The notes under the pieces: generated by a model
Database searches by the model: none
What the model saw: only the letters and a program-made list of their open reading frames with translations
What the model was told of the DNA's origin: nothing
Position numbers and translations under genes: made by a program
Shown here: in pieces, positions 1 through 11,412 of the stretch
How the letters are laid out: every line of letters starts with the position of its first letter
Numbering within the stretch: position 1 is the first letter of the stretch
Assembly: GCA_965222615.1 (NCBI GenBank)
Contig: CBDCUI010000008.1
Span: 1-64,000, forward strand
Direction: 5' to 3'
From: Gammaproteobacteria bacterium
GTDB lineage: Bacteria; Pseudomonadota; Gammaproteobacteria; UBA4575
Length of the DNA stretch: 64,000 bases

Positions 1-2
1 CA

Positions 3-455
3 TCAGGACCAGATTCTGAGTTTAGAGAAATGGAATTTTCGGTAGACGATCAAGAGATCATGAATAAGCTTAAGCAAGCGTTAAATGATAAATCAATCGA
101 TTTCCAAACATACACAAAACATGGGGAAGAATATATTGGGTACAGCAAAGAAGACAAAAATTTTTTTGAAGAAATTCGGTATCTAGTTATGACGGGTAGA
201 CCTAAAGGTTATGAGCAAATATGTAGTGACGATGAAGACCGTACAGAACTAATGTCTCAGCGTCTTAAGGATGTAGGTATACATACACTATCTAGTGATA
301 GAGGCGAAGAATATGGGGGTTACAGTAGATACTGTTTGGCTTGGCCTGAAGAACATAATGGAAAAGTTGCAGAATTAGATAGCCGTTATAAATACATTCT
401 AGAACGTCAAAAACAACTGCGTGAAAATGAAGGTGTCAAAAGTAATCTTGAGTAA
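3..455 (+). CDS. hypothetical protein, probably 5'-truncated by the window edge
   Basis: ORF 30..455. The frame is open back to position 3 (SGPDSEFRE-M). No family recognised. Confidence 0.6.
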   Translation, partial: SGPDSEFREMEFSVDDQEIMNKLKQALNDKSIDFQTYTKHGEEYIGYSKEDKNFFEEIRYLVMTGRPKGYEQICSDDEDRTELMSQRLKDVGIHTLSSDRGEEYGGYSRYCLAWPEEHNGKVAELDSRYKYILERQKQLRENEGVKSNLE

Positions 456-539
456 TCGCTAATGACCCAATGTATGGACACCTCCAAGCTAAGCAATTAG
501 TTTGTGTGGTGTTAGAAACACAAAAGAAGGAGTCCATAC

Positions 540-1583
540 ATGAAACATCTAAACATAGTTGGCGTTGATTTAGCAAAAAACGTAATCCAAGTTTGCGTGA
601 TGCGCGCGCAGCGACAAGAAGTAATCAATCGTTCCTATAGTCGTACTAAATTTGCAGTATTTCTCGTTAAACAACAGCGCAGTGTCATCGCCTTTGAAGC
701 ATGTGCCAGTAGTCATTATTGGGCACGAAAAGCCAAAGCATTGGGGCATACCATCAAAATCATTCCGGCAAAAGCGATCACACCGTATCGTCAAGGCCAT
801 AAAACCGATATCAATGATGCCCGCGCGATCGCTGAAGCGGCGAGCCGTCCCCACCTACTTGAAGCCCCATTAAAGAGTGTTGAACAACAAGGCTTGCAAG
901 CCGTACAACGTTCAAGAGAGCTTTTGGTACAAGAGCGAACCGGTCTATCCAACCACATCCGTGGCATATTGATGGAATTTGGCATCGTCATTCCTAAAGG
1001 CTTTGCCGCCTTGCATCAACAGATACCCGAGGTACTAGAAGATGGGGAGAACGAGCTACCCGATCTATATCGCCCGACGTTACAGATATTGTACGAACGC
1101 TTAGTGCAACTCAAAACAACCATCACGATACTTGATCAACAAATTGCCGCCCTCATCAAACAACATCCAGGTTGCGAAACGCTCATGAAGATAGAAGGTG
1201 TGGGCCCAATCAGTGCGATATTACTGTATGCCAGCCTTGGTAGTGGCGATGCGTTTAGCCAAGGTAGACAATATGCGGCGTACTTAGGGTTAACGCCCAA
1301 GCAATACAGCAGTGGCGGGAAAACGAATCTTATTGGGATAAGTAAAAAGGTTGCGAATAAACGTTTGCGCTCCGTACTCATTCAAGGAGCACGTGCTTAT
1401 GTGCACAAGCTCAAAGAACCGAAAAGCCAAAAAGATCGCTGGCTGCTGGCACTGATTGAACGTGCCGGCTATGGCAAGGCGGCGGTAGCGTTAGCCAACA
1501 AAAATGTGCGCACCGCATGGGCCATGCTGACCCGGGGGACAACGTACAATAAACAACATACAACCACGATGCACATTGCATAA
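540..1583 (+). CDS. IS110-family DEDD transposase/recombinase
   Basis: GVDLAK, AFEAC, KTDINDA (DEDD RuvC-like), GVGPISA HhH, LGLTPKQYSSGGK catalytic-Ser motif, AAVALANK. Confidence 0.97.
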   Translation: MKHLNIVGVDLAKNVIQVCVMRAQRQEVINRSYSRTKFAVFLVKQQRSVIAFEACASSHYWARKAKALGHTIKIIPAKAITPYRQGHKTDINDARAIAEAASRPHLLEAPLKSVEQQGLQAVQRSRELLVQERTGLSNHIRGILMEFGIVIPKGFAALHQQIPEVLEDGENELPDLYRPTLQILYERLVQLKTTITILDQQIAALIKQHPGCETLMKIEGVGPISAILLYASLGSGDAFSQGRQYAAYLGLTPKQYSSGGKTNLIGISKKVANKRLRSVLIQGARAYVHKLKEPKSQKDRWLLALIERAGYGKAAVALANKNVRTAWAMLTRGTTYNKQHTTTMHIA

Positions 1584-1825
1584 AAACAAAACCAAGACAC
1601 TACGTTACATAAAAGTGTAGAAGAGGTTAGGCAAGTAGACCTAGGTAAAGAATAAAGAGATTCGCTTCGATGAAACCTGCTCCGCTTTGAGGATAAATAG
1701 AATCCATCGACCCAATGAGGCATCGAAGTGCGCATACATACAGGGCTAGAAGATCGCAACTTCACGAAAAAGCCGAATATACATCTGCGTCTTTTTCTTT
1801 ATCAATTTCTGTTTGCTAAACTGGC
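1584..1825 (+). ncRNA. predicted bridge/seek RNA of IS copy 1 (ends approximate)
   Basis: Stem CTTCGATG(1665-72)/CATCGAAG(1721-28) encloses TCCGCTTTG and GACCCAA, which match the target flanks. A second loop contains CATACAT and ATATACA, which match the IS ends. Confidence 0.8.
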
Positions 1826-1902
1826 GGTGTCCATATACAAAGCGGACATTTAAGTTATGAGTGCGCTATTATCAAATCTGGTTAACATTGAATAATTCTT
1901 GA

Positions 1903-2211
1903 ATGATGAGTAGATGGAGTATTTTTGTAAAAACCATTAAAGATCAGTTGGGGTACTATAGGGCTTTGGCATTAGACCCACGCACACCAGCGATTTCCAA
2001 ATGGCTTATCGGTATCGCGATTGCTTACTTGGTTTCTCCTATCGATATTATTCCTGATTTTGTTCCGATATTTGGATACTTAGATGATCTTATTATCGTG
2101 CCAAGTTTAATTGGCATTGCCGTTTTTTTAATTCCAAAGGATGTGAAGCTGGAAACGAGAGCACGCCAATCTATATATCCAGATGCGCTGAAATCAAATT
2201 TGAACATATGA
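1903..2211 (+). CDS. YkvA/DUF1232 family membrane protein
   Basis: DPRTP...AYLVSPIDIIPDFVPIFGYLDD signature. Confidence 0.9.
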   Translation: MMSRWSIFVKTIKDQLGYYRALALDPRTPAISKWLIGIAIAYLVSPIDIIPDFVPIFGYLDDLIIVPSLIGIAVFLIPKDVKLETRARQSIYPDALKSNLNI

Positions 2212-2423
2212 CAAAAGGTCCGCTTCAATTATTTTCGACACTTATATGCCCAGAGTGTGGGAAAAAATACAAAGAAAAAATGCCTACAAACGCCTGCCAG
2301 TACTATTATGAATGTGTTTCTTGTGGTGCGTTATTAAAGCCCAAAACAGGAGATTGTTGTGTGTATTGTTCGTATGGCGATACGCCATGCCCGCCTATTC
2401 AACAACAGAAAAGTTGCTGTTAG
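2208..2423 (+). CDS. GDCCVxC domain small Cys-rich protein
   Basis: CPECG...MPTNACQYYYEC..C...LKPKTGDCCVYCSYG..PCPP. All Cys codons, no TGA. Confidence 0.9.
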   Translation: MTKGPLQLFSTLICPECGKKYKEKMPTNACQYYYECVSCGALLKPKTGDCCVYCSYGDTPCPPIQQQKSCC

Positions 2424-2521
2424 AGTAATGATTGCTTTTGGCTGCTACCCAATGTATGGACACCTCCAAGCTAAGCAATTAGTTTGTGTGGTGTTAGAAA
2501 CACAAAAGAAGGAGTCCATAC

Positions 2522-3565
2522 ATGAAACATCTAAACATAGTTGGCGTTGATTTAGCAAAAAACGTAATCCAAGTTTGCGTGATGCGCGCGCAGCGACAAG
2601 AAGTAATCAATCGTTCCTATAGTCGTACTAAATTTGCAGTATTTCTCGTTAAACAACAGCGCAGTGTCATCGCCTTTGAAGCATGTGCCAGTAGTCATTA
2701 TTGGGCACGAAAAGCCAAAGCATTGGGGCATACCATCAAAATCATTCCGGCAAAAGCGATCACACCGTATCGTCAAGGCCATAAAACCGATATCAATGAT
2801 GCCCGCGCGATCGCTGAAGCGGCGAGCCGTCCCCACCTACTTGAAGCCCCATTAAAGAGTGTTGAACAACAAGGCTTGCAAGCCGTACAACGTTCAAGAG
2901 AGCTTTTGGTACAAGAGCGAACCGGTCTATCCAACCACATCCGTGGCATATTGATGGAATTTGGCATCGTCATTCCTAAAGGCTTTGCCGCCTTGCATCA
3001 ACAGATACCCGAGGTACTAGAAGATGGGGAGAACGAGCTACCCGATCTATATCGCCCGACGTTACAGATATTGTACGAACGCTTAGTGCAACTCAAAACA
3101 ACCATCACGATACTTGATCAACAAATTGCCGCCCTCATCAAACAACATCCAGGTTGCGAAACGCTCATGAAGATAGAAGGTGTGGGCCCAATCAGTGCGA
3201 TATTACTGTATGCCAGCCTTGGTAGTGGCGATGCGTTTAGCCAAGGTAGACAATATGCGGCGTACTTAGGGTTAACGCCCAAGCAATACAGCAGTGGCGG
3301 GAAAACGAATCTTATTGGGATAAGTAAAAAGGTTGCGAATAAACGTTTGCGCTCCGTACTCATTCAAGGAGCACGTGCTTATGTGCACAAGCTCAAAGAA
3401 CCGAAAAGCCAAAAAGATCGCTGGCTGCTGGCACTGATTGAACGTGCCGGCTATGGCAAGGCGGCGGTAGCGTTAGCCAACAAAAATGTGCGCACCGCAT
3501 GGGCCATGCTGACCCGGGGGACAACGTACAATAAACAACATACAACCACGATGCACATTGCATAA
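2522..3565 (+). CDS. IS110-family DEDD transposase/recombinase
   Basis: Protein identical to 540..1583. Confidence 0.97.
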   Translation: MKHLNIVGVDLAKNVIQVCVMRAQRQEVINRSYSRTKFAVFLVKQQRSVIAFEACASSHYWARKAKALGHTIKIIPAKAITPYRQGHKTDINDARAIAEAASRPHLLEAPLKSVEQQGLQAVQRSRELLVQERTGLSNHIRGILMEFGIVIPKGFAALHQQIPEVLEDGENELPDLYRPTLQILYERLVQLKTTITILDQQIAALIKQHPGCETLMKIEGVGPISAILLYASLGSGDAFSQGRQYAAYLGLTPKQYSSGGKTNLIGISKKVANKRLRSVLIQGARAYVHKLKEPKSQKDRWLLALIERAGYGKAAVALANKNVRTAWAMLTRGTTYNKQHTTTMHIA

Positions 3566-3807
3566 AAACAAAACCAAGACACTACGTTACATAAAAGTGT
3601 AGAAGAGGTTAGGCAAGTAGACCTAGGTAAAGAATAAAGAGATTCGCTTCGATGAAACCTGCTCCGCTTTGAGGATAAATAGAATCCATCGACCCAATGA
3701 GGCATCGAAGTGCGCATACATACAGGGCTAGAAGATCGCAACTTCACGAAAAAGCCGAATATACATCTGCGTCTTTTTCTTTATCAATTTCTGTTTGCTA
3801 AACTGGC
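3566..3807 (+). ncRNA. predicted bridge/seek RNA of IS copy 2 (ends approximate)
   Basis: Same sequence as 1584-1825. Confidence 0.8.
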
Positions 3808-3919
3808 GGTGTCCATATACAAAGTGGACATTCAAATAGAACTAGGATTATTGAGAATTTATAGGGAGACTACTTTATATAAGTTATTAATTATTTCCTA
3901 AATTAAAAAAGAGGATTGT

Positions 3920-4336
3920 ATGAGTAAAATTCTAGAGTCTGCGAAGCAATTCTTTGATGCCTGTGAGACTGGAAAAGGATGGGCTGGCTGTAAGGAATAC
4001 TGTCTACCTAATGCAACATTCTCTTCGCAAACAGGAGTACTTGCTGAAATAAATACACTTGAAGATTACTGTGAATGGGTGAAGGACTTGTTTATACCTG
4101 TACCAGATGGCCGTTATGAATTGCTTTTTTTTGCAGCTGATGAAGCTCGTAAAACTGTTGCTGGTTATGGTGTATTTCACGGGACACAAACAGGTCCAGG
4201 TGGTCCGGTGGCACCCACTGGAAAATCTTTTACTGCTGACTATGTTTATGCAATGGTATTCGAAGGCAATCGTATTCAACACATGACGAAAATATGGAAT
4301 GATACGATTACTATGCAACAACTCGGGTGGAATTAA
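3920..4336 (+). CDS. SnoaL-like/ester cyclase (NTF2-fold) protein
   Basis: FHGTQTGPGGPVAPTGKSFTADYVY...KIWN. RBS GAGG upstream. Confidence 0.8.
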   Translation: MSKILESAKQFFDACETGKGWAGCKEYCLPNATFSSQTGVLAEINTLEDYCEWVKDLFIPVPDGRYELLFFAADEARKTVAGYGVFHGTQTGPGGPVAPTGKSFTADYVYAMVFEGNRIQHMTKIWNDTITMQQLGWN

Positions 4337-4384
4337 CTCCATTTGTATTTGTTATAGAGCGGTTCTAATTTAGTAGATGCTTTT

Positions 4385-4664
4385 ATGTCTGCTATTGACT
4401 GTGGTCTCAATAGGTCGATGCAACACTTTGAAATAGAGTGAAAAAAGGTTGCAAAAGCTAAGAGAAATGCAATTACATCAACATCTTAAGAGTAGATCAA
4501 TAAAAGATGGCTCGAAGCAAGTAATAATGCAGTATTTAATGTAACCGGTTCATCCAAAAACAACTCAACACTAAATGGTCATCCGTTTGAGTCAACCTCT
4601 TTATTACTAAAAGTTTAGCAAGGTGTTGCATTGACCGATTGAATCGGCAACCTTAAGCGGACAT
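4385..4664. repeat. palindromic site 3 (empty form ATGTCTGCT-ATTGACCTTA-AGCGGACAT), split by the MITE
   Basis: Left arm 4385-4399 and right arm 4652-4664 are homologous to the sites split by the IS copies at 451-470/1841-1850 and 2427-2452/3823-3832. Confidence 0.75.
4400..4649. mobile_element. MITE / internally deleted IS30-like element
   Basis: 27-bp TIRs TGTGGTCTCAATAGGTCGATGCAACAC / GTGTTGCATTGACCGATTGAATCGGCA (21/27 match), flanked by a 2-bp AC duplication (4398-99, 4650-51). No transposase. Family assignment is from recalled end motif. Confidence 0.75.
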
Positions 4665-4702
4665 TTTTAATTCATAAAAGTATAAAATTATAGAAATTAG
4701 TA

Positions 4703-5251
4703 ATGCGAGTTGATCCTGCGAGTCATTTAGTAGTTGGAGTGAACTACACACCTTCGCCTAATTGTGATGAGCGACCTGAGAATTGTTCTCCATCGCTAAT
4801 CGTTATTCATAATATCAGTTTGCCGCCAAATGAGTTTGGTGGGCCGTATATCGAGCAGTTGTTTACTAACCAGTTGGATCCTAATGTGCATCCCTATTTT
4901 GAAGAAATTCAACATCAAAAAATTTCTGCACATGTATTGATTCGACGTGATGGTAGCGTTACACAATTTGTGCCTTTTAATCGTCGGGCTTGGCATGCGG
5001 GGGAGTCTAGTTACGAGGGTCGATCTTGTTGTAATGATTTTTCCATTGGTATCGAACTAGAAGGCACTGATGAAATTCCTTATGAAGATGTTCAATACTT
5101 AGTTCTAACTACTCTGATTGATGCATTGCGTATCGCTTACCCAATGCTTGGCAAACAAAATATTGTTGGACATTCGGATATTGCTCCGCAACGAAAGACT
5201 GATCCGGGCCGTGTATTTGATTGGAAATTTTTGCGCGAACAATTGGCCTAA
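4703..5251 (+). CDS. ampD: 1,6-anhydro-N-acetylmuramyl-L-alanine amidase
   Basis: SPNCDERP, IHNISLPP, RAWHAG, CNDFSIGIELEG, GHSDIAPQRKTDPG. Confidence 0.95.
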   Translation: MRVDPASHLVVGVNYTPSPNCDERPENCSPSLIVIHNISLPPNEFGGPYIEQLFTNQLDPNVHPYFEEIQHQKISAHVLIRRDGSVTQFVPFNRRAWHAGESSYEGRSCCNDFSIGIELEGTDEIPYEDVQYLVLTTLIDALRIAYPMLGKQNIVGHSDIAPQRKTDPGRVFDWKFLREQLA

Positions 5252-9141: not shown

Positions 9142-11412
9142 TTGATGCAAACCTCAAAAAACACTCCTGTTATTAAGGATTTAGTATTAATAGGAGGAGG
9201 GCATAGCCATGTGGCCGTGCTGAAGAAATTTGGCATGCAACCGTTGTCCGGGCTACAAATTACTTTGATCACGCGGGATATTCATACGCCTTATTCAGGT
9301 ATGTTACCGGGTTATATTGCTGGTCATTATTCTTATGATGAGAGTCACATTGACCTGCGCCCGCTAGCCCGTTTTGCCGGCGCTCAGCTTTTTCATATGC
9401 CTGCAACATTTCTAGATTTAGAGAATAAACAAGTCCTGTGTAGTGATCGTCCACCCATTCCTTATGACGTACTTTCAATCAATACCGGATCCACCCCTTC
9501 CCATATTGAAGTTCCTGGATCGAAGCAACATGCACTAGCCGTAAAACCCATTAATCATTTTTTACGTGGGTGGGATGCCGTTATGCATGATGTGGTTAAA
9601 CGCAAAGGCGATTATCAAATAGTTGTGGTCGGTGCTGGTGCAGGAGGCGTAGAAGTAACGCTGGCGACGCAATTTCATTTACGGCAATTGCTAAGTGAAA
9701 ATTCATTGCCAACGAATAAACTTCGCTACCATTTGATTTCTGGTAATGGCACGATTTTGCCTACCCATAATGAATCAGTGCAACAACGTTTTGAACGAAT
9801 TTTATTTGAACGCGATATCGCCGTGCATAGTGGTTGTAAAGCAAAACGTGTCGATAAAAACATTATCGAACTAGACAATGAAAAATCACTGCATGCCGAT
9901 GCCATAATATGGGCCACACATGCTTCAGCACCAAGTTGGTATAAAGAGTCCGGTCTTAGTGTAGATGAGCAGGGGTTTATAAAAGTAAATGATTCATTGC
10001 AATCTGTATCACATCCTGATGTGTTTGCAGCAGGTGATATTGCAACCGTAACGGATTACCCACGACCTAAATCGGGTGTCTTTGCAGTGCGTCAGGGCCC
10101 GCCCTTATATAAGAATATTAAACGTGCGCTCACTAGTCGGCCTCTTGAAAGGCATGTGCCTCAAATCAGCTTTTTAAGCTTAATCAGTACCGGAAATAAG
10201 TATGCAGTAGCCTCACGCAGCAAATTTGCATGGGAAGGGAGATGGGTGTGGAAGCTCAAGGACTATATCGATCGTAAATTTATGCGTAAATATAGCGAGC
10301 TTCCTGAAATGGTGGAAGATGAAACGATCAAAAGCGATTTAGTCAGTGCAGATGCCTTGCAAGAAATTTCTGCAATCGCGATGCGTTGTGGAGGCTGTGG
10401 TGCGAAAGTGGGTAGTAATGTTTTAAGTCGAGTAGTAAATCAATTATCGACCGTGCAGCGTGACGATGTACTTTTAGGCCTGAATGCGCCAGACGATGCC
10501 GCTGTACTTGAAGTCCCATTAGGCAAAGTACAAGTACAATCGGTAGATTATTTTCGTTCTTTTATTAATGATCCTTATGTATTTGGGCAGATTGCGGCAA
10601 ACCATAGTTTAGGGGATATATTTGCCATGGGTGCGGAAGCACAGGCCGCGATGGCTATTGCAACAGTTCCTTACGGTAAAGAGCAAGCGGTAGAACAACA
10701 GCTACATCAAATGATGGAGGGTGCTTTACAGGTATTAAATCAGCACAATGCGTCCCTGGTTGGCGGGCATTCTAGTGAAGGTGCAGAACTTTCCTTTGGG
10801 CTAAGTGTTACCGGTCTAATCGAAAAGCAAAGATTATTAGCAAAAGGTGGTATGCAAGTTGGCGATGCTATTCTGATTACCAAGCCAATTGGTACAGGTA
10901 CGTTGTTTGCAGCAGATATGCGCGGTAAGGCTAAAGGACGATGGATTACAAATGCGGTTAACTCTATGATCCATTCTAATCACGATGCTGCACAATGCTT
11001 ATATAATTATGCTGTGCATGCCTGTACAGACGTTACCGGTTTTGGTGTATTGGGCCATTTAGTAGAGATGTTGCGGGCAGCTGAGGTGGATATCAACATC
11101 GATATAAATGCTCTACCTATTCTTGAAGGAGCTTTGCAAACTATACAACTTGGAATTTTCAGTTCTTTGCAACCTTCAAATGTTCGGTTACGTCGTGCTA
11201 TTAAAAATCAGGAACAGGCAGTTGAACATGAGCTCTACCCATTATTATTTGACCCACAAACAGCAGGAGGGTTATTGGCAACGGTTCCTACAGAACATGC
11301 AGATTCATGCATTGCGAATTTGCATAAGCTAGGTTATCCACACGCTTGCGTGATTGGCCAAGTTCAACAACAGGCTGATGTTGTCGAGTCCATTTATATT
11401 AAAACAAGTTAA
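9142..11412 (+). CDS. selD: FAD-dependent oxidoreductase - selenide,water dikinase (SelD) fusion
   Basis: N-terminal GGGHSH/GAGAGG Rossmann motifs. C-terminal RCGGCGAKV, DDAAV, QSVDYF, GGHS, DVTGFG.LGH, DPQTAGGLL. Confidence 0.92.
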   Translation: MMQTSKNTPVIKDLVLIGGGHSHVAVLKKFGMQPLSGLQITLITRDIHTPYSGMLPGYIAGHYSYDESHIDLRPLARFAGAQLFHMPATFLDLENKQVLCSDRPPIPYDVLSINTGSTPSHIEVPGSKQHALAVKPINHFLRGWDAVMHDVVKRKGDYQIVVVGAGAGGVEVTLATQFHLRQLLSENSLPTNKLRYHLISGNGTILPTHNESVQQRFERILFERDIAVHSGCKAKRVDKNIIELDNEKSLHADAIIWATHASAPSWYKESGLSVDEQGFIKVNDSLQSVSHPDVFAAGDIATVTDYPRPKSGVFAVRQGPPLYKNIKRALTSRPLERHVPQISFLSLISTGNKYAVASRSKFAWEGRWVWKLKDYIDRKFMRKYSELPEMVEDETIKSDLVSADALQEISAIAMRCGGCGAKVGSNVLSRVVNQLSTVQRDDVLLGLNAPDDAAVLEVPLGKVQVQSVDYFRSFINDPYVFGQIAANHSLGDIFAMGAEAQAAMAIATVPYGKEQAVEQQLHQMMEGALQVLNQHNASLVGGHSSEGAELSFGLSVTGLIEKQRLLAKGGMQVGDAILITKPIGTGTLFAADMRGKAKGRWITNAVNSMIHSNHDAAQCLYNYAVHACTDVTGFGVLGHLVEMLRAAEVDINIDINALPILEGALQTIQLGIFSSLQPSNVRLRRAIKNQEQAVEHELYPLLFDPQTAGGLLATVPTEHADSCIANLHKLGYPHACVIGQVQQQADVVESIYIKTS

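What the first reader, a model, noticed from the sequence alone, without database searches (positions are those of the whole stretch)
1660..1792. Bridge/seek RNA of an IS1111-type element with all four guide segments readable from the sequence
Seen: removing the IS gives the target GACC-CAA-AGCGGA. In the 3' non-coding end, a perfect stem (CTTCGATG 1665-72 / CATCGAAG 1721-28) with an inner GGAT/ATCC hairpin encloses TCCGCTTTG (1681-89, reverse complement of CAAAGCGGA) and GACCCAA (1709-15, left target flank plus core). A second loop (CGCA/TGCG and GGCT/AGCC stems) encloses CATACAT (1733-39, reverse complement of left end ATGTATG 470-476) and ATATACA (1777-83, equal to right end 1833-39). Established: IS110/IS1111 recombinases use a bispecific ncRNA with target- and donor-binding loops. 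Inference: this is an intact RNA-guided recombinase with a CAA core and a target that can be read out, so it may be reprogrammable.
Basis: partly seen in the sequence, partly recalled or inferred. Interest (0 to 1): 0.9.

Follow-up and report, generated by a model that had tools for sequence, protein, structure and literature searches.

The report
IS1111-type insertion sequence bridge RNA
A jumping gene of a known RNA-guided family carries, behind its recombinase gene, a folded RNA whose loops spell out its insertion site and its own ends; it is a very clean but expected example of that family.

Summary
Window 471-1840 is a 1,370-bp IS1111-group insertion sequence. It has an IS110-family DEDD recombinase gene at 540-1583, 14-nt subterminal inverted repeats and a 257-nt 3' non-coding end. 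The genome holds five identical copies plus one cut by a contig end.

Seven unoccupied sites in the same genome read GACC-CAA-AGCGGA or differ by one base, with a single CAA. This confirms the deduced target and the element's ends.

In 61 distinct homologous RNA regions (recombinases 44-72% identical) the two-loop fold is kept by compensatory changes. The two target guides change together with the flanking DNA: 15 left-guide variants, with 52 of 55 loci matching 6 of 6.

The donor guides are nearly invariant, like the ends they match, and show only one or two compensatory events.

This is what Durrant 2024 and Siddiquee 2024 describe for IS1111-type elements, including the guide order. It is a new member of a known kind, not a new mechanism. 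RNA expression, activity and reprogrammability remain inferences.

Family data qualify the "CAA core": only its first base, C, is shared by all four guides and both junctions.

The parts
464..470 (+). Left half of the target: flank GACC (464-467) plus the left copy of CAA (468-470)
   Evidence: 5 of 6 left flanks in the genome read GACC-CAA and 1 reads TACC-CAA. Unoccupied sites have a single CAA.
471..1840 (+). Insertion sequence, 1,370 bp, counted with the right CAA (1838-1840)
   Evidence: five copies 100% identical over 1-1370 and one cut by a contig end. The ends are defined by unoccupied sites.
473..486 (+). Left subterminal inverted repeat TATGGACACCTCCA
   Evidence: It pairs with 1822-1835. 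In most relatives the repeat is 13-14 nt and perfect.
540..1583 (+). Recombinase gene, 347 aa: DEDD/RuvC-like domain plus Tnp domain with a GLTPKQYSSG motif
   Evidence: PDB relatives are ISCro4 (E 1.5e-11) and IS621 (E 2.2e-11).
1632..1803 (+). Conserved RNA block, about 172 nt: the likely long bridge/seek RNA
   Evidence: Alignments. Its length is like the 145-172 nt long seekRNAs. The RNA's 5' and 3' ends were not determined.
1665..1728 (+). Target-binding stem-loop: outer stem 1665-1672/1721-1728, CCU 1676-1678/AGG 1718-1720, inner hairpin 1691-1694/1702-1705
   Evidence: The outer stem is 94.7% paired, with 7 of 8 pairs showing changes on both sides.
1681..1689 (+). Right-target guide TCCGCTTTG, complementary to the top strand of CAA+AGCGGA
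   Evidence: Cognate match 6.72 of 9 against 5.31 permuted; 0 of 5000 permutations reached it.
1709..1715 (+). Left-target guide GACCCAA, same sense as flank plus core. It extends to C1708 for 4 of the 6 sites.
   Evidence: There are 15 guide hexamer classes; 52 of 55 loci match their own flank 6 of 6.
1730..1790 (+). Donor-binding stem-loop: closing stem around 1730-1734/1786-1790 (register ambiguous by one), GGCU 1744-1747/AGCC 1771-1774, terminal hairpin GAAG 1749-1752/CUUC 1760-1763
   Evidence: The GGCY/RGCC helix is 98.4% paired, with 2 pairs showing changes on both sides.
1733..1739 (+). Right-donor guide CATACAT, complementary to A470 plus left end TGTATG 471-476
   Evidence: Most relatives read CATACATTG or CATACATAG, that is CAA or CTA plus TGTATG.
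1777..1783 (+). Left-donor guide ATATACA, same sense as right end 1833-1839
   Evidence: It equals the right end in 65 of 66 loci, including 3 of 3 with the variant end ACATAC.
1813..1840 (+). Half promoter in the right end: -35-like TTGCTA 1813-1818, a 17-nt spacer, then TACAA 1836-1840. This would become TACAAT only when joined to T471 in a circle.
   Evidence: Read. TTGCTA is kept in most rows. No sigma-70-like site on the + strand inside the element. The junction promoter itself is inferred by analogy.
1822..1835 (+). Right subterminal inverted repeat TGGCGGTGTCCATA
1841..1850 (+). Right half of the target, AGCGGACATT. It is the right arm of a palindrome whose left arm lies 5' of GACC.
2453..3822 (+). 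Second identical copy. Its RNA region is 3642-3774. It sits in an off-consensus site, TACC-CAA-AGTGGA.

Best explanation
Window 471-1840 is an active-looking IS1111-group insertion sequence.

Its 3' non-coding end encodes a structured RNA of about 130-170 nt. By analogy with characterised relatives, this RNA binds the element's DEDD/serine recombinase.

One internal loop reads the target. [quoted passage not shown] This directs orientation-specific insertion, without duplication, into the loop of a REP-like palindrome.

A second internal loop matches the element's own joined ends: the right end ATATA-CA and A-TGTATG of the left end. It probably holds the circular donor.

The RNA is probably made together with the recombinase mRNA. 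The likely source is a promoter (TTGCTA, 17 nt, TACAA|T) that exists only when the ends are joined, or read-through from the upstream host gene.

Shown here: the anatomy, the copies, the unoccupied sites, the fold covariation and the guide-flank covariation. Inferred: RNA expression, protein binding, strand exchange, the promoter and the role of the donor loop.
For: Family: PF01548+PF02371 and NF033542 at 312 bits against a cut-off of 140. The nearest solved relatives are the ISCro4 and IS621 transposases.

Copies: five are 100% identical over 1,370 bp and one is cut by a contig end. Depth in DNA contigs is 5-8 times that of the flanks.

Target: 6 left and 5 right flanks agree with the guides. 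Seven unoccupied sites carry one CAA.

Fold: RNAalifold on 61 distinct homologs gives 26 pairs, 15 of them with compensatory change. 94.1% of cells are paired against 32-50% when partners are slid. There are 175 compensatory cells against 54 in shuffles; 0 of 500 shuffles reached that.

Guides:
- The left-target guide matches its own flank at 7.11 of 9 against 4.59 permuted. The right-target guide scores 6.72 against 5.31. In both, 0 of 5000 permutations reached the observed value.
- 15 left-guide hexamers were found, and 52 of 55 loci match 6 of 6.
- On a recombinase tree of 59 rows the guide changes 17 times and the flank 16 times. This includes a switch (L033) among nearly identical recombinases.

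Donor loop: the left-donor guide equals the right end in 65 of 66 loci, including 3 of 3 with ACATAC. L082 and L083, with left end TGTGT, have matching guides. The loop bases are among the invariant columns.

The guide order equals that reported for IS1111 seekRNAs.
Against: - No RNA data: no RNA run is listed for this sequence, and the contigs showed no circle junction.
- Rfam gave no match.
- The window's own fold is only 2 sd better than shuffles, and parts of the guides are predicted to be paired.
- The donor-loop evidence is thin. Ends and guides are nearly invariant. The compensatory cases fall in one clade each (L023/L026/L073; L082/L083).
- L078 and L064 carry an uncompensated mismatch.
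- This element's right-donor guide pairs with only the last base of CAA.
- For ISEc11 an 82-nt seekRNA sufficed for transposition, so a donor loop may be dispensable in this group.
- Several single loci do not match their right-target guide well: L010, L025, L039, L073.
Confidence: 0.9

Rival explanations
1. The RNA is a target-only seekRNA. The first loop guides target choice. The element's ends are recognised by the protein through the subterminal inverted repeats. The second stem-loop is then a scaffold or processing element whose matches to the ends are not used for pairing.
For: In ISEc11 the 82-nt short seekRNA supported transposition better than the long form. The authors leave the role of the long form open. 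Here the donor matches are short (7 nt; p about 0.11-0.13 each in shuffles) and nearly invariant, so they give little covariation. L078 and L064 carry uncompensated mismatches. The window's right-donor guide has lost pairing to two of the three core bases that most relatives keep.
Against: The unpaired loop bases CATACAT and ATATAC are among the most conserved columns of the whole RNA. The variant right end ACATAC is matched in 3 of 3 loci, and the variant left end TGTGT in 2 of 3. The right-donor guide follows the left-junction trinucleotide at 33, 32 and 40 of 42 combinations. Durrant 2024 reports donor-complementary loop bases in IS1111 orthologues (passage read).
Confidence: 0.25
2. The complementarity has no guiding role. 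Either the 3' end merely holds a captured or degenerate copy of the REP-like target, or the matches are chance, and targeting is done by the protein alone.
For: The target is itself a palindrome, so short matches to it are easier to find. Three of the four matches are only 7 nt.
Against: The two halves are permuted and of opposite sense relative to the target, so this is not a copy. They sit on opposite sides of a loop closed by stems with compensatory changes. They change with the flanks about 16-17 times on the tree. All four matches together occurred in 0 of 2000 shuffles.
Confidence: 0.02
3. The element is a recently amplified but now inactive relic. For example, its degenerate donor-core pairing or a defect in the recombinase may prevent further movement.
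For: The right-donor guide reads GTA where most relatives read CAA or CTA. No circle junction or excised form was seen in contigs. The element was not found in 40 relatives' genomes.
Against: Five copies are identical over 1,370 bp and the 347-aa frame is open with all family-invariant residues. One copy sits in an off-consensus site. L053, L055 and L058 also read GTA.
Confidence: 0.07

Closest known systems
IS1111-family elements with a seekRNA (ISEc11, ISPa11, ISKpn4, ISPst6; Siddiquee et al. 2024, PMC11187229; sections 6, 9, 10, 12-14 and passages read)
   Same: - DEDD recombinase of 330-350 aa with a GL-P----S(T)G motif.
- Subterminal inverted repeats and a long non-coding region downstream of the gene.
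- An RNA with the top-strand complement 5' of the bottom-strand complement.
- A target in a foldable palindrome (REP for ISPa11), and insertion without duplication.
- Natural retargeting among close relatives.
- A long RNA form of about 150-170 nt.
   Different: - The target (GACC-CAA-AGCGGA) is none of those listed in the review's Table 1.
- The terminal extensions beyond the repeats are shorter than the 7+3 bp they quote.
- Identity to those named elements was not measured, because no sequences of them were available to me.
IS621 bridge RNA (IS110 group; Durrant et al. 2024, PMC11208160, and Hiraizumi et al. 2024, PMC11208158; passages read)
   Same: - Two internal loops, each with two guides that read opposite strands on either side of a short shared core.
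- One loop reads the target and the other the joined ends.
- A DEDD plus serine composite active site. The motifs VGVDLAK, KTDINDA and GLTPKQYSSG align with those of ISCro4, a solved IS110-family relative; IS621 itself matched at E 2.2e-11 but its alignment was not printed.
- A promoter completed at the circle junction.
   Different: - The RNA lies 3' of the gene, in the right end.
- The guide order in both loops is the reverse of IS621's when read in the sense of the gene.
- The inverted repeats are 14 nt rather than 2-3 nt.
- The guides overlap by 3 nt rather than on a CT dinucleotide.
- Protein similarity is remote (E about 1e-11, C-terminal domain only).
ISPpu9 with its Ssr9 small RNA (Pseudomonas putida; PMC12288879; search listing and abstract only)
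   Same: An IS110-family element inserted in REP sequences, with a small-RNA gene downstream of the transposase gene.
   Different: Not compared in sequence or structure. That paper reports extra stand-alone RNA copies. None were found here beyond the element copies and one decayed remnant.

Membership tests
IS110 family (DEDD recombinases) | N-terminal DEDD/RuvC-like domain (PF01548) plus C-terminal Tnp domain (PF02371) | tested here: met
   65.4 and 66 bits, both above their cut-offs. NF033542 at 312 bits (cut-off 140).
IS110 family (DEDD recombinases) | Catalytic residues: D, E, D, D and the serine of the G--P----SG motif | tested here: met
   D10, E53, D90, D93 and G250-L-T-P-K-Q-Y-S-S258-G259 are invariant in 15 relatives. 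They align with the corresponding motifs of ISCro4. The residue roles are taken from IS621, not tested here.
IS1111 group | Subterminal inverted repeats of about 7-17 bp | tested here: met
   14 nt with one mismatch here, and 13-14 nt perfect in most relatives.
IS1111 group | The longer non-coding region lies downstream of the recombinase gene | tested here: met
   69 nt upstream (471-539) against 257 nt downstream (1584-1840).
IS1111 group | Terminal extensions of 7 (or 6) bp left and 3 bp right beyond the repeats (as quoted) | tested here: inconclusive
   Depending on where the CAA is assigned, the extensions are 5+2 or 2+5 bp. This differs from the quoted lengths, but the repeat can be drawn in more than one way.
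IS1111 group | Site- and orientation-specific insertion without target duplication | tested here: met
   6 of 6 copies lie in the same site in the same orientation. Unoccupied sites have one CAA.
seekRNA / bridge RNA | A structured RNA in the non-coding end, with the fold conserved | tested here: met
   94% of cells paired, 18-19 pairs with compensatory change, 0 of 500 shuffles as high.
seekRNA / bridge RNA | Loop segments complementary to both strands of the target, covarying with it | tested here: met
seekRNA / bridge RNA | IS1111-type order: top-strand complement 5' of bottom-strand complement | tested here: met
   1681-1689 precedes 1709-1715. The rule is quoted.
bridge RNA (bispecific) | A second loop complementary to the joined donor ends, covarying with them | tested here: inconclusive
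   The matches are present and nearly invariant (65 of 66). Only one or two independent compensatory events were found, and there are two uncompensated mismatches.
bridge RNA (bispecific) | The core is included in all four pairings (Durrant 2024) | tested here: not met
   In the window the two target guides cover CAA, the left-donor guide covers CA, and the right-donor guide covers only the last A. Across 42 combinations only the C is read by the two left guides. The right guides follow their own junction.
seekRNA / bridge RNA | The RNA is expressed, binds the recombinase and is needed for movement | not testable with these tools
   No RNA run was listed. These are bench tests.
Rfam families | A match to a curated covariance model | tested here: not met
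   0 matches at E up to 1 in window 1-5000.

The most novel reading that the evidence does not exclude
This subfamily has the ends TGTATGGAC...GTCCATATACA and is widespread in marine gammaproteobacterial genomes. It may be an IS1111 lineage with a simple IS621-like RNA of two internal loops in mirror orientation, in which donor and target need share only one base (C).

The left junction keeps the element's own trinucleotide, read by the right-donor guide. The right junction keeps the target's, read by the right-target guide.

This would mean a crossover fixed at one side of the 'core', with tolerance of core mismatches. If so, it is a compact recombinase with fewer sequence constraints than the CT-core IS621. 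The family also offers a natural series of at least 15 retargeted guides on which to test the rules.
Probability: 0.25. Interest if true: 0.5.

Novelty: new member of a known kind. Interest (0 to 1): 0.3.

Why it matters
This is a textbook-clean natural example of RNA-guided recombination in the IS1111 group. Target, ends, unoccupied sites and all guide segments can be read from one genome, and a family of about 60 relatives shows repeated natural retargeting.

That makes it a convenient test bed for two points still open for IS1111-type elements:
- whether the donor loop is needed, and
- how much of the 'core' must be shared.

It does not reveal a new mechanism. For genome annotation, it explains six insertions into REP-like hairpins just downstream of genes in this bacterium.

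Tried and rejected
Rfam: no family matched window 1-5000 at E up to 1.

Expression: no RNA holder was listed.

Laying the contigs of four DNA runs on window 1-4300 gave no joints, so there was no circle junction and no excised form. Contigs cannot show rare forms.

attC hypothesis. I asked whether the target is an integron attC site, because small same-strand genes flank the copies.
- An integron integrase exists at C9:397324-398262, but it is not near any copy.
- The sites are dispersed over three contigs.
- The palindrome is about 31 nt, with no R'/R'' cores by my reading.
I rejected this in favour of a REP-like or terminator-like hairpin.

Outer closing helix of the RNA. Two alternatives were tested: a long-range helix (columns 26-31 with 181-186, 81.6% paired) and a local hairpin (columns 29-33 with 39-43, 83.0% paired). 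Neither is clearly better, and this is left open.

The element was sought in 40 relatives' genomes and not found in those searched; there were only two weak hits of about 70 nt. In plasmids the best protein identity was 47.6%, annotated only as an IS110 family transposase, so no name was found.

A housekeeping-type protein was searched to judge the host. The best identities were 82-83% (87% over one partial match), in records from mixed sources. I read this as an under-sampled environmental bacterium, not a listed pathogen. No taxon was named.

They may already list this element or its subfamily.

I ran no literature search for this target motif, so I make no claim that it is not in print.

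Full report
WHAT IS THERE

Window 471-1840 is a 1,370-bp insertion sequence. It holds one gene (540-1583, + strand, 347 aa). The protein carries the DEDD_Tnp_IS110 and Transposase_20 domains and scores 312 bits on NCBIfam NF033542, 'IS110 family RNA-guided transposase'.

The nearest solved proteins are the ISCro4 and IS621 transposases, at E about 1e-11. In the printed ISCro4 alignment the motifs VGVDLAK, KTDINDA and GLTPKQYSSG line up with their counterparts. In IS621 the corresponding residues D11, E60, D102, D105 and S241 form the active site (passages read).

The element has 14-nt subterminal inverted repeats (473-486 and 1822-1835). It has 69 nt of non-coding DNA before the gene and 257 nt after it. 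These are the features that separate the IS1111 group from the IS110 group (Siddiquee 2024, sections read; Durrant 2024, passage).

COPIES AND TARGET

The genome (9 contigs, 3.10 Mb) has five copies that are 100% identical over all 1,370 bp. It also has one copy cut by a contig end and one decayed remnant. A second copy lies in the window at 2453-3822.

- Of 6 left flanks, 5 read GACC-CAA (4 of them CGACC) and 1 reads TACC-CAA.
- Of 5 right flanks, 4 read CAA-AGCGGACA and 1 reads CAA-AGTGGACA.
- The genome also holds 3 exact and 4 one-mismatch unoccupied sites GACCCAAAGCGGA. All 7 are on the forward strand and none on the reverse; the backwards-read control gave 0 forward and 1 reverse.
- These sites lie in palindromes of the form aATGaCcGCT-aac-GACCCAA-AGCGGACATt.

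The CAA is present once before insertion, and the ends are as stated.

In window copy 1 the insertion point lies 15 nt after the stop codon of the upstream gene (TAA 453-455; the left end starts at 471). The neighbouring genes are small and of unknown function.

THE OBSERVATION

There are two small corrections. The CGCA stem overlaps the first two bases of CATACAT. 'ATGTATG 470-476' starts with the last base of the left CAA.

Within the window alone the 9-mer is unlikely by chance (0.0025), and the three 7-mers are not individually rare (0.11-0.13). All four together occurred in 0 of 2000 shuffles.

Its energy is only 2 sd better than shuffles. The guides are mostly, not wholly, unpaired (mean P(unpaired) 0.54-0.75).

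HOMOLOGS

A scan of one genome per species returned 239 candidate stretches. Of these, 199 encode a relative, and the best 80 were kept (recombinase 44-72% identical, mostly marine gammaproteobacterial assemblies).

Nearly all share the ends TGTATGGAC...GTCCATATAC. From the window plus the 80 loci I could extract 66 3' non-coding regions. The rest were cut by contig ends or lacked the right-end motif. After dropping 4 duplicates and one short row, 61 distinct RNA regions were aligned.

FOLD

RNAalifold predicts the same architecture as in the window:
- an 8-bp outer stem, a CCU/AGG clamp and an inner hairpin around the first internal loop;
- a GCG/CGC stem, a GGCY/RGCC stem and a terminal hairpin around the second.

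That is 26 pairs, 15 of them with compensatory changes.

Counting pairs on that structure gives 94.1% of cells paired, against 32-50% when the 3' partners are slid by 1-3 columns. There are 175 compensatory cells against 54 in column shuffles, and 0 of 500 shuffles reached the observed value (similar).

Because the structure was derived from the same alignment, the slid control is somewhat favourable to it. The compensatory counts are not affected in that way.

TARGET GUIDES

The segment aligned with 1707-1715 matches the 9 bases left of the element at 7.11 of 9 in cognate pairs, against 4.59 when flanks are permuted among loci. This used 38 unique pairs from 55 loci, and 0 of 5000 permutations reached it.

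The reverse complement of the segment aligned with 1681-1689 matches the first 9 bases at the right junction at 6.72, against 5.31 permuted. This used 50 unique pairs from 63 loci, again with 0 of 5000.

There are 15 different left-guide hexamers, and 52 of 55 loci match their own flank 6 of 6. The misses are:
- the window's copy 1 (5 of 6);
- L086 (5 of 6);
- L036 (4 of 6), whose left flank looks like the degenerate right end of another copy.

The right guide is looser. Some loci match 9 of 9 with quite different sequences (L021, L032, L082). Others match poorly (L010, L025, L039, L073).

On a quick maximum-likelihood tree of 59 recombinases the left guide changes 17 times and the left flank 16 times. 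Seven rows with stops or truncations were left out: L016, L064, L076, L078-L081. L033 has a different guide and flank from nearly identical sisters. Relatedness therefore does not explain the association.

DONOR GUIDES

The bases aligned with 1777-1782 equal the last six bases of the right end in 65 of 66 loci. This includes all 3 loci whose end is ACATAC instead of ATATAC. The miss is L064. Those 3 loci form one clade.

The bases aligned with 1734-1739 are complementary to the first five bases of the left end in nearly all loci. The sixth base is matched in 42 of 57. Of three loci with the variant end TGTGT, L082 and L083 have the matching guide and L078 does not.

The loop bases are among the invariant columns of the alignment. 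This supports a sequence-specific role. But independent compensatory events number only one or two, so the donor-loop reading is less secure than the target-loop reading.

THE 'CORE'

In this element CAA flanks both sides, and both target guides cover it. In 42 distinct combinations from 56 loci:
- The first base, C, is invariant at both junctions (42 of 42) and in the left-target and left-donor guides. The right-target guide has it in 40 of 42 and the right-donor guide in 33 of 42.
- The left junction follows the right-donor guide (33, 32 and 40 of 42 at the three positions). It is typical of each subfamily (CAA, CTA or CGA).
- The right junction follows the right-target guide (40, 32 and 28 of 42).
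- The two junctions agree with each other at only 27 and 18 of 42 for positions 2 and 3.

So the left trinucleotide behaves as part of the element and the right one as part of the target.

Read on the opposite strand, the RNA has the IS621 order (left guides 5', right guides 3'). The junction pattern then corresponds to IS621's top-strand cut at the 3' side of its core (passages). This is my inference from single junctions in assemblies and was not tested.

The window's own right-donor guide pairs with only the last core base. Most relatives read CAA or CTA at that position.

EXPRESSION

No sigma-70-like site lies on the + strand inside the element.

The right end carries TTGCTA (1813-1818), conserved in most relatives. 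It is followed by 17 nt and TACAA (1836-1840). Joining to T471 in a circle would give TACAAT. This is the junction promoter known for the family and is inferred here.

Read-through from the upstream gene is another possible source. No RNA data were available.

COMPARISON WITH WHAT IS KNOWN

Siddiquee 2024 showed for four IS1111 members that an RNA from the 3' non-coding region co-purifies with the transposase and is essential. It carries a top-strand complement 5' of a bottom-strand complement, and it is naturally and experimentally reprogrammable.

Durrant 2024 predicted bridge RNAs in the right end of 93% of IS1111s. They noted that the donor-binding bases often sit in a multi-loop. Here they sit in a simple internal loop.

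The target differs from those listed for the characterised members. I could not find a name for the element. ISfinder and both papers' supplementary tables were not available.

VERDICT

The finding is a very clean new member of a known kind.

Its value lies in the completeness of the read-out and in the family-wide covariation. There are two open mechanistic points: whether the donor loop is needed, and whether the core is effectively a single base. Interest 0.3.

Noticed in passing
own genome C9:258240-258333 (locus L008), with C9:258086-258150 repeated from about 258335: A 94-bp remnant of the element's right end keeps the bases matching window 1606-1632, 1657-1671 and 1802-1838 but lacks both RNA loops. 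It is followed by a second copy of the start of the neighbouring gene, a direct duplication of unmeasured length (at least about 65 bp visible). About 190 bp upstream lies a near-consensus unoccupied site, AACCCAAAGCGGA.
   Followed up: partly
own genome C9:397324-398262: An integron integrase gene (TIGR02249, 490 bits, cut-off 265). It is not adjacent to any copy of the element.
   Followed up: partly
own genome C7:816759-822884, and window 471-3822: Copies and unoccupied sites cluster. There are three copies and one empty site within 6 kb at the end of contig C7, and two copies 612 bp apart at the start of C8. The assembly breaks inside a copy at the C7 end.
   Followed up: no
window 9142-11412: A 756-aa protein that fuses a pyridine nucleotide-disulphide oxidoreductase domain to selenide, water dikinase (SelD) domains. 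The best database identities are 82-83% (87% over one partial match), in records from mixed sources.
   Followed up: no
loci L024, L038-L070 (the 'CTA' subfamily) and L061/L062/L063/L070: A large subfamily always has CTA at the left junction, while its right junctions mostly read CAA. In four loci the left-target guide reads CAA although the left junction reads CTA. Donor and target cores need not be equal.
   Followed up: partly
L036:about 1-130: The left flank of this relative looks like a degenerate right end of another copy (…CCTATATACAA). This suggests insertion next to, or into, an older copy.
   Followed up: no
run X4, loose end behind window 1850: A right flank is seen that is not among the five assembled ones. 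It may belong to the copy cut by the end of contig C7, or be a further insertion in the sampled population.
   Followed up: no
flanks of many loci, and own sites: The left arm of the target palindrome (…CCGCT…) lies outside the stretch matched by the left guide, yet it is complementary to the right flank in many genera. The elements therefore choose hairpins with a GACCCAA-type loop. What these hairpins are (REP, terminator or other) is not settled.
   Followed up: partly
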